Source: Octopus vulgaris | Taxonomy: Eukaryota | Reading direction: 5' to 3' | NCBI GenBank assembly: GCA_951406725.2 | Contig: OX597815.1 | Location: 132,618,001-132,682,000 of the forward strand | DNA length: 64,000 bases | In this document: positions 2,000 through 2,374 of the stretch, in pieces | Position numbering within the stretch: position 1 is the first letter of the stretch | Layout: each line of letters begins with the position of its first letter | Made by a program: the position numbers and the translations under genes | Notes under the pieces: model-generated | What the model saw: only the letters and a program-made list of their open reading frames with translations | Databases searched by the model: none | What the model was told of the DNA's origin: nothing

Positions 2000-2210
2000 G
2001 ATGCACATGCCTTGGATGCTGCTCCCCAACAGGATGTGTTTACGTCAACGTTGTCGATCCAATAATGACTGCTGTCGCCGCTATAACATTTGTGACCGTT
2101 GGGCTAAACTCTGCTATGATTGTTGGTATGGACATCCTTGTTCTTCTGACAAAGATTGCTGCCAACGTTATCCAAGATGCAGTCTCTCCAAGGGTACTTG
2201 CACAAATTAA
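2000..2210 (+). CDS. Terminal coding exon of a cysteine-rich peptide with two tandem knottin-like (C-C-CC-C-C) modules
   Basis: Acceptor TGTTTTTTCTTTCAG|G at 1999/2000. Open frame MHMPWMLLPNRMCLRQRCRSNNDCCRRYNICDRWAKLCYDCWYGHPCSSDKDCCQRYPRCSLSKGTCTN* with 12 Cys in two near-identically spaced modules. AATAAA at 2369. Confidence 0.85.
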
Positions 2211-2368
2211 CACCAGTGACTACTTAAACAGAAACACCGCAGACCTTGGACAAATGAACGGCGAGTCCGTTGTGACGTGACAACATATCTCAAAAGACGA
2301 ATGAAAGTGAAAATACCTCCCACCGAAACAATGAAGAATCATCATGCCAAGTTCTTTAATAACACATG

Positions 2369-2374
2369 AATAAA
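2369..2374 (+). terminator. Polyadenylation signal of the knottin-like gene
   Basis: AATAAA about 160 nt after the stop, followed by a T/GT-rich stretch (TTGTTTTCTTT, ~2406-2416). Confidence 0.6.

What the first reader, a model, noticed from the sequence alone, without database searches (positions are those of the whole stretch)
2000..2374. Tandem double-knottin (C-C-CC-C-C x2) peptide exon
Seen: modules C-x4-C-x5-CC-x5-C-x6-C and C-x5-C-x5-CC-x5-C-x6-C joined by YD, both with D-CC-xRY; strong acceptor and AATAAA. Known: this framework matches inhibitor-cystine-knot peptides (conotoxin framework VI/VII, spider toxins), and double-knot toxins such as DkTx and Hi1a bind ion channels bivalently. 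Inference: a secreted bivalent toxin-like, defence or neuropeptide whose signal-peptide exon lies upstream. The phase-2 intron could complete an Arg (AG|G) processing site just before MHMPW.
Basis: partly seen in the sequence, partly recalled or inferred. Interest (0 to 1): 0.75.

Follow-up and report, generated by a model that had tools for sequence, protein, structure and literature searches.

The report
Unnamed double-knot peptide across lophotrochozoans
This is the last exon of a spliced, single-copy octopus gene for a small precursor ending in two back-to-back predicted cystine knots; snails, bivalves, worms and lamp shells keep close relatives, so it is likely an overlooked signalling peptide of the animal's own rather than a venom toxin.

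Summary
Window 2000-2210 is the last coding exon of a five-exon, single-copy octopus gene, listed in databases only as 'uncharacterized' (LOC115232540/LOC106874007). Contigs from 4 of 4 runs (4 studies) splice in at 2000. One comes through a 33-nt cassette exon that adds 11 residues. The precursor has a hydrophobic leader, an acidic spacer, two KR sites and a 69-residue, 12-cysteine domain predicted as two knottin-like modules. Relatives occur in bivalves, a snail, a chiton, annelids, a nemertean and a brachiopod; 48 of 49 complete domains keep identical cysteine spacing apart from the last loop, including a fixed 2-residue linker. The mature part is better conserved than signal or spacer, the reverse of what is known for conotoxins. 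It is not CCWamide/agatoxin-like peptide (8 Cys, amidated) and not oyster prohormone-3 (a different gene). Its identifiers and motifs were absent from the papers and catalogues searched. Best reading: an unnamed, ancient endogenous secreted signalling peptide. Tissue, processing, disulfides and target are untested.

The parts
1986..1999 (+). Polypyrimidine tract and AG acceptor of the last coding exon (phase-2 intron)
   Evidence: Sequence; contigs of 4 of 4 runs begin matching here, with loose ends equal to the ends of upstream exons 3 or 4
2000..2210 (+). Last coding exon (211 nt with stop): G completing Arg or Trp, then the 69-residue 12-Cys domain. Upstream coding exons lie outside the window at G000:C2:132562335-413 (signal), 132581850-901, 132589741-809 and 132594638-670 (33-nt cassette)
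   Evidence: exon lengths sum to 444 and 411 nt, matching the 147- and 136-residue database isoforms
2010..2027 (+). Conserved lead-in PW-x-x-LP before knot 1
   Evidence: P 44/49, W 45/49, L 44/49, P 42/49
2037..2114 (+). Knottin-like module 1 (C13-C38)
   Evidence: model residues about 10-43 align with solved knottins at rmsd 1.7-2.5 A, Z 2.3-3.3
2115..2120 (+). Two-residue linker (YD) inside the conserved C-x-D-C-W-Y-G junction
   Evidence: Length 2 in 49 of 49 complete domains; D 46/49, W 48/49, G 43/49
2121..2201 (+). Knottin-like module 2 (C41-C67), invariant Pro58; last loop varies 6-23 residues across the family
   Evidence: weak matches to Pfam Toxin_23 (E 0.0099, below cut-off) and omega-atracotoxin-Hv2a (E 0.047)
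2211..2784 (+). 3' untranslated region, at least this long in one run; candidate poly(A) signals at 2369, 2744, 2812, 2866
3349..3376 (+). Possible alternative terminal exon reached from an internal donor (GT at 2126); would give a single-knot form ending CYDC-CNEINFHQL (database model P0005)
   Evidence: no joint at 2126 in the contigs of 4 runs laid over 1950-2900, so unconfirmed

Best explanation
The exon is the end of a spliced, single-copy octopus gene whose precursor likely releases a conserved peptide of two predicted cystine knots that likely works as the animal's own secreted signal (neuropeptide or peptide hormone) on a fixed receptor. Shown: the five-exon gene, two splice forms, the precursor layout (hydrophobic leader 1-27, acidic spacer, KR 43-44, 21-residue peptide, KR 66-67, 69-residue 12-Cys domain) and family-wide conservation. 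Predicted: each six-Cys half folds as a knottin, and the invariant 2-residue C-x-D-C-W-Y-G junction packs the halves into one compact unit rather than a tethered dumbbell. Inferred: signal peptidase and prohormone convertases cut at the leader and at KR, releasing a 69-residue (cassette skipped) or 80-residue (cassette included) knotted peptide and a short WARLSS... peptide. The conserved PW-x-x-LP lead-in, N-x-C-D loop and WYG/YP aromatics would form the receptor-binding face; by analogy with prokineticins, the N-terminal segment would carry activation and the knots binding and stability. The receptor (GPCR, single-pass receptor or channel) is unknown.
For: Spliced contigs in 4 of 4 runs from 4 studies, two isoforms. 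Leader with mean hydropathy 3.0 over 11 residues, and 2.5-3.5 in all 18 precursors scored (no SignalP run); helix 3-29 in the precursor model, with the spacer region disordered. One strong locus in the 2.8-Gb genome with the own peptide and with a divergent relative. 53 representatives at E<=0.001, 49 with the complete domain, 48 of these with spacing 4,5,CC,5,6,2,5,5,CC,5. Of 20 representatives looked up, 12 carry a species name and all 12 are lophotrochozoans: Pecten, Physella, Crassostrea, Mytilus, Liolophura, Lineus, Lingula x2, Capitella x2, Paralvinella, Helobdella. Mature domain better kept than leader or spacer: against P0007 57/69 vs 17/27 and 12/17; against Lineus 41/69 vs 9/27 and 4/17; non-Cys residues 18-29 of 57 across the 11 non-cephalopod sequences compared. 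R-[YWF]A-x-[LM]S after the first basic site in 13 of 52 proteins (12 of 13 after KR; all 6 species-named ones are molluscs). Gene layout as described for CCWamide/ALP neuropeptide genes: signal in the first coding exon, mature peptide in the last, phase-2 intron in the last basic codon (PMC8557429 section 9). AlphaFold2 pLDDT 85.9; most Foldseek rows are knottins at about 1-2.5 A over 24-29 residues.
Against: No tissue data: run libraries are not on record and are only guessed to be RNA. No peptide from this precursor was found in any supplement searched, including neuropeptide catalogues of oyster ganglia, scallop ganglia and nemerteans/brachiopods, where a strongly neuronal precursor might have been noticed. 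The second cut is not universal: only 13 of 46 relatives have a dibasic pair within 6 residues of PW, although many others have a single Arg two residues before it. No C-terminal amidation signal in the 12 ends printed. Fold matches are all weak (no Foldseek E<=0.001; best Z 3.4), and disulfide pairing could not be read from the model. The phase-2 intron in an Arg codon is partly expected from the AG|G splice consensus, so it is weak evidence of kinship.
Confidence: 0.62

Rival explanations
1. A secreted developmental or extracellular modulator that works like the cysteine-rich domains of Dickkopf, draxin or prokineticin, binding a single-pass receptor, a guidance cue or matrix rather than acting as a neuropeptide.
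For: The only whole-domain structural matches (50-57 of 69 residues) are draxin (Z 3.4, rmsd 3.8), Dkk4 N-terminal region (Z 3.3, rmsd 3.0), Dkk1 C-terminal domain, colipase and Bv8. The C-x2-C junction between two small disulfide modules resembles the Dickkopf N-terminal domain (recalled). Cationic domain (12 K/R vs 5 D/E).
Against: Z near 3 is within the range of a common arrangement (tool note). Pfam Dickkopf_N matches another octopus locus (C10) and not this exon; family profile vs that exon gives probability 6%. The precursor has a prohormone layout with two KR sites.
Confidence: 0.15
2. A conserved defence or housekeeping knottin: antimicrobial peptide or protease inhibitor released in mucus, blood or gut.
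For: Net positive, aromatic-rich domain; top single-module fold neighbours include potato carboxypeptidase inhibitor and engineered derivatives bound to HTRA1.
Against: Single copy and 1 change in 136 residues between two octopus species; defence peptides usually expand and diversify (established knowledge). Sequence identity to the inhibitors is 14-28%.
Confidence: 0.12
3. A bivalent venom toxin of the posterior salivary gland acting on prey ion channels like DkTx or Hi1a, possibly recruited from the endogenous gene.
For: Two C-C-CC-C-C modules; weak sequence matches to omega-atracotoxin-Hv2a (E 0.022-0.047) and to a 76-residue hexatoxin Hi1a entry (E 6.2); nearest Atlas clusters are spider toxins at 0.77, a lead only. 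Recruitment of neuropeptides into venom is common (PMC13311285, passages).
Against: Orthologue-like relatives in non-venomous filter feeders, grazers and deposit feeders; no expansion; mature part more conserved than the signal. The two O. bimaculoides UniProt ids and seven peptide strings were absent from the held part of an O. vulgaris posterior salivary gland proteome table that cites such ids 2,600 times (file cut when stored, so weak).
Confidence: 0.07

Closest known systems
CCWamide / agatoxin-like peptides (ALP) (PMC8557429: passages, section 9 and supplement search)
   Same: Endogenous knottin-type peptide at the end of a short precursor; signal in first coding exon, mature peptide in last exon, KR split by a phase-2 intron; receptor unknown; shared across lophotrochozoans.
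   Different: Twelve cysteines in two modules instead of eight in one; no amidated aromatic C-terminus; conserved PW-x-x-LP and DCWYG motifs; string DCWY absent from that paper's supplement as held.
Prohormone-3 / ITG-like precursors (PMC8398477 passages and table; PMC6425005 and PMC8557429 supplement passages)
   Same: Secreted precursor with short peptides and a cysteine-rich C-terminal part; bivalve forms keep 12 Cys; first module C-C-CC-C-C; orphan.
   Different: Oyster prohormone-3 is XP_011427435.1, the oyster relative here is XP_011447338. Printed prohormone-3 sequences have long loops, a long inter-module stretch and a second module C-x5-C-x6..11-CC-x13-C-x9-C.
Double-knot toxins: DkTx, Hi1a (properties recalled), remipede xibalbin-3 (PMC11288129 passages)
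   Same: Two six-cysteine knottin modules in tandem, likely from an internal duplication (module profiles align at 96.7%, partly driven by the Cys pattern).
   Different: Those are lineage-specific venom components; this one is single-copy, has relatives in four phyla, and has a 2-residue linker. Sequence similarity is at noise level.
Dickkopf N-terminal domain, draxin, prokineticin/colipase fold
   Same: Two small disulfide-rich subdomains packed together; best whole-domain fold matches (Z 2.8-3.4).
   Different: Ten cysteines in those families (recalled; prokineticin also PMC8398477) against twelve; no Pfam match; profile probability 6% against the octopus Dickkopf_N-like exon.
Database entries LOC115232540 (O. 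sinensis), CAI9718200.1 (O. vulgaris), LOC106874007 (O. bimaculoides)
   Same: This very gene; two isoforms already modelled.
   Different: Named only 'uncharacterized', 'hypothetical' or, automatically, 'Granulins domain-containing'; Pfam Granulin scores E 8.

Membership tests
Inhibitor cystine knot (ICK) | C-C-CC-C-C framework with compatible spacing | tested here: met
   Both modules; invariant in 49 complete domains
Inhibitor cystine knot (ICK) | Knottin backbone (short beta-hairpin core) | tested here: inconclusive
   AF2 pLDDT 85.9; most neighbours are knottins at 1-2.5 A over about 30 residues, but no E<=0.001 and Z<=3.4
Inhibitor cystine knot (ICK) | Disulfides 1-4, 2-5, 3-6 in each module | not testable with these tools
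   Model coordinates are not returned; no mass spectrometry
Double-knot venom toxins (DkTx, Hi1a, xibalbin-3) | Two tandem ICK-type modules | tested here: met
Double-knot venom toxins (DkTx, Hi1a, xibalbin-3) | Restricted to a venomous lineage, fast-evolving mature region | tested here: not met
   Relatives in bivalves, chiton, brachiopod, annelids; mature part best conserved
Double-knot venom toxins (DkTx, Hi1a, xibalbin-3) | Present in venom gland or venom | tested here: inconclusive
   Absent from the held, cut part of one salivary gland proteome table; run tissues unknown
Double-knot venom toxins (DkTx, Hi1a, xibalbin-3) | Bivalent action on an ion channel | not testable with these tools
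   Needs electrophysiology
CCWamide / agatoxin-like peptide | Eight conserved cysteines | tested here: not met
   Twelve invariant cysteines against eight
CCWamide / agatoxin-like peptide | Amidated aromatic C-terminal residue | tested here: not met
   Ends CTN; no aromatic-Gly-basic end in 12 named members printed
CCWamide / agatoxin-like peptide | Signal in first exon, mature peptide in last exon, phase-2 intron in the last basic codon | tested here: met
   partly expected from the AG|G consensus
Prohormone-3 / ITG-like | Orthology with the described mollusc prohormone-3 gene | tested here: not met
   Different oyster accession
Prohormone-3 / ITG-like | Prohormone-3 cysteine spacing | tested here: not met
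   Compared by eye with sequences printed; no alignment was run
Dickkopf_N (PF04706) | Profile match over the curated cut-off | tested here: not met
   No match for the peptide or 34 relatives at E<=0.1; the genome search finds another locus only
Prohormone-type precursor (general) | Signal peptide and dibasic sites flanking the product | tested here: met
   Hydropathy and helix (no SignalP), KR 43-44 and 66-67
Prohormone-type precursor (general) | Processed peptide detected in neurons or endocrine cells | not testable with these tools
   No tissue-labelled data; not in supplements searched

The most novel reading that the evidence does not exclude
Lophotrochozoans have kept, since before molluscs, annelids, nemerteans and brachiopods split, their own double-knot ligand that tunes their own ion channels or an unknown receptor class: an endogenous counterpart of bivalent spider toxins and a candidate source of the six-cysteine knot used by cone-snail toxins, with a cassette exon that switches the N-terminus of the released peptide.
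Probability: 0.15. Interest if true: 0.82.

Novelty: new variant of a known kind. Interest (0 to 1): 0.5.

Why it matters
Catalogues of spiralian neuropeptides are considered broad (72 precursor groups in PMC8557429), yet this family, conserved residue for residue in cysteine spacing across four phyla, was not found in those searched. It offers a defined orphan ligand for the many orphan lophotrochozoan receptors and a second case, beside CCWamide/ALP, of a toxin-like knot that is probably endogenous. It also warns that 'toxin-like' hits of this family in octopus, nemertean or leech transcriptomes are probably not venom. A short, rigid, natural two-knot scaffold could be of use in peptide engineering.

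Tried and rejected
Homologue search with the bare 69-mer at near lengths found nothing because precursors are longer; the 'longer' search found two. The profile search covered only proteins of 530-2000 residues and is uninformative, so no profile search for remote relatives outside Lophotrochozoa was achieved; only 20 of the 53 representatives were looked up by name. Four of 53 hits (P0011, P0059 repeats; P0060-62 truncated forms, five rows in all without the full pattern) were left out of spacing counts. No RNA holder is listed on record; RNA status rests on contigs joining exons across 25-30 kb introns. Contig depth differed over 100-fold among runs (4-1070) but is a poor measure and tissues are unknown, so it is not used. 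Pfam gave no match over cut-off. Atlas scores were 0.76-0.81, within the shuffle range. The tree (47 rows, 77 columns, 6 of 43 branches starred) is too weak for paralogue history; it loosely separates a large group holding Capitella P0032 from a group with most named molluscs, Lineus and Lingula. Paper searches for gene ids, motifs (one irrelevant plant hit) and topic words found no description. Supplement searches were empty for this family in PMC8398477, PMC8557429, PMC6425005 (two files cut), PMC9712504 (one file unreadable), PMC10501145, PMC5996578 and PMC7693380 (cut). Figures, bioRxiv supplements and subscription papers (for example cuttlefish and Platynereis peptidomes) were not visible and may name the family. 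DREP families (PMC13311285 section 41) have one or two disulfides and do not fit. Earlier scan findings held nothing on it.

Full report
Observation. The + strand frame 2001-2210 encodes 69 residues with twelve cysteines in two modules, C-x4-C-x5-CC-x5-C-x6-C and C-x5-C-x5-CC-x5-C-x6-C, joined by YD, each with D-CC-x-R-Y. A pyrimidine-rich acceptor precedes 2000. The double pattern appears once in the window, in none of 11 upstream 10-kb stretches and in none of 60 shuffles. The AATAAA at 2369 is real but probably not the only end: contigs continue to 2420, 2451, 2605 and 2784.

The gene. The peptide is the C-terminus of database proteins from Octopus vulgaris, O. sinensis and O. bimaculoides, all named uncharacterized or hypothetical. 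Mapping them on 120 kb of upstream genome gives four more coding exons of 79, 52, 69 and 33 nt with GT/AG ends, separated by introns of 19.4, 7.8, 4.8 and 25.3 kb; lengths sum to 444 nt (147 residues) or, without the 33-nt exon, 411 nt (136 residues). Contigs from four runs of four studies all begin to match at 1998-1999 and carry loose 5' ends: three equal the end of exon 3, one equals exon 4. Both isoforms therefore exist as joined sequence. The runs are only guessed to be RNA or unlabelled, but the joints fall exactly on splice sites and the genome shows no second, intronless copy.

Precursor anatomy. Residues 1-27 are a hydrophobic leader (hydropathy 3.0; helix 3-29 in the model; SignalP was not available). 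An acidic spacer ends at KR 43-44, a 21-residue peptide ends at KR 66-67, then the knotted domain follows. This is the usual layout of a prohormone (established knowledge). Cleavage itself is inferred.

The family. phmmer over 1.84 billion representatives returned 53 proteins at E<=0.001. With P0002 added, 49 of 54 hold the whole domain, and 48 of the 49 have the spacing 4,5,CC,5,6,2,5,5,CC,5; only the last loop varies (6-23 residues). Conserved non-cysteine positions include PW-x-x-LP before knot 1, N-x-C-D, D-C-W-Y-G across the 2-residue linker, and an invariant Pro in knot 2. Of 20 representatives looked up, 12 carry species names: scallop, oyster, mussel, pond snail, chiton, nemertean, brachiopod (2) and annelids (4). 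No named hit lies outside Lophotrochozoa, but the rest were not looked up and no useful profile search was achieved. The mature domain is the best-kept part in every comparison; O. vulgaris and O. bimaculoides differ at one residue in 136. Conotoxins show the reverse pattern, conserved signal and hypervariable mature region (recalled). In molluscs the residues after the first KR are also conserved (13 of 52 proteins), while 12 unnamed or annelid sequences share W-G-H-x-[ST]-R-[FY]-[PA]-W. Several database proteins that look like intron read-throughs begin to match at an Arg two residues before PW, hinting that the last intron lies at nearly the same place in those species (inference).

Structure. 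AlphaFold2 with 45 sequences gave pLDDT 85.9, pTM 0.60 and the same pattern of short helix and hairpin in both halves. Foldseek rows are mostly knottins aligned over one module at about 1-2.5 A, none with E<=0.001; a second look places those matches on module 1, Z 2.1-3.3. The only matches over most of the domain are draxin, Dkk4-N, Dkk1-C, colipase and Bv8 at Z 2.8-3.4, too weak to prove kinship but consistent with two small modules packed together. Module profiles align with each other at 96.7%, so an internal duplication is likely, although cysteines drive that score. Disulfide pairing could not be read.

Mechanism. Shown: gene, splicing, layout, conservation. Predicted: two knottin modules in a compact unit. 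Inferred: secretion, cleavage at KR, and binding of a conserved endogenous receptor through the aromatic and Pro/Asp positions listed above; long-term constraint on surface residues in animals with very different diets and no venom is most simply explained by a fixed partner in the animal itself. Vertebrate prokineticins need their N-terminal hexapeptide for receptor binding (PMC8398477, passage), which suggests how the cassette exon or the conserved peptide after the first KR could matter; this is analogy only. I give this reading 0.62, a Dickkopf/draxin-like modulator 0.15, a defence peptide or protease inhibitor 0.12 and a venom toxin 0.07. Results against the best reading: absence from three neuropeptide catalogues, no amidation signal, and a dibasic site next to the domain in only 13 of 46 relatives.

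Comparison with known families. It works most like CCWamide/agatoxin-like peptides, and shares their reported gene layout (PMC8557429 section 9), but fails membership on cysteine number and C-terminus. It is not prohormone-3: the oyster gene of that name has another accession and the printed sequences have other spacing. It is not Dickkopf_N. It shares only the tandem framework with DkTx, Hi1a and xibalbin-3 (PMC11288129 passages; DkTx and Hi1a properties recalled).

Literature seen. Passages, one section and supplement search: PMC8557429. Passages and supplement search: PMC8398477. Supplement search only: PMC6425005, PMC9712504, PMC10501145, PMC5996578. Abstract and supplement search: PMC7693380. 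Passages: PMC11288129, PMC13542836. Passages and section 41: PMC13311285. Others only as search listings. Ten full-text searches found no description of the gene or family; sequences shown only in figures, cut files, preprint supplements or subscription journals would have been missed.

Verdict. A real, expressed gene, already modelled but unnamed, belonging to an apparently undescribed lophotrochozoan family of secreted double-knot peptides. New variant of a known kind; interest 0.5.

Noticed in passing
window 2126 and 3349-3376: An internal donor inside the Trp-Tyr codons (TG|GTATGG) and a downstream exon would give a single-knot, eight-cysteine form (database model P0005). An unrelated relative, P0061, breaks at the same point and also continues C-N-D/E. 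Either a conserved alternative ending or a recurrent artefact, since W-Y (39 of 49 members) always creates that donor.
   Followed up: partly
L020:1345-1917 (-), G000:C10:1795432-1795575: An exon matching Pfam Dickkopf_N (26.5 bits, 23.2; cut-off 25): a possible Dickkopf-like gene in octopus, a family seldom reported from protostomes (recalled).
   Followed up: partly
G000:C2:132501002-132501043 (L019 start): Model P0005 places a further upstream exon about 61 kb before the signal exon, so the gene may span at least 119 kb for a 411-444 nt reading frame.
   Followed up: no
proteins P0017, P0018, P0023, P0031, P0033, P0034, P0036, P0045, P0052, P0057: Long family members carry a separate conserved KR...C-[ST]-C-[TS]-C-E-T-[KR]-P motif in the pro-region, absent from the octopus gene; possibly a second peptide or a dimerisation site.
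   Followed up: no
window 44523-46638 (-) and 31139-31654 (-): Reverse transcriptase plus GIY-YIG frames, a Penelope-like retroelement, and a second GIY-YIG fragment.
   Followed up: partly
window 49019-49516 (-), 35301-35900 (-), 54760-55876 (+): Pif1 helicase fragment (Helitron-like); a frame resembling a Tc1/mariner transposase and two frames resembling a LINE ORF1 by eye, without Pfam match.
   Followed up: no
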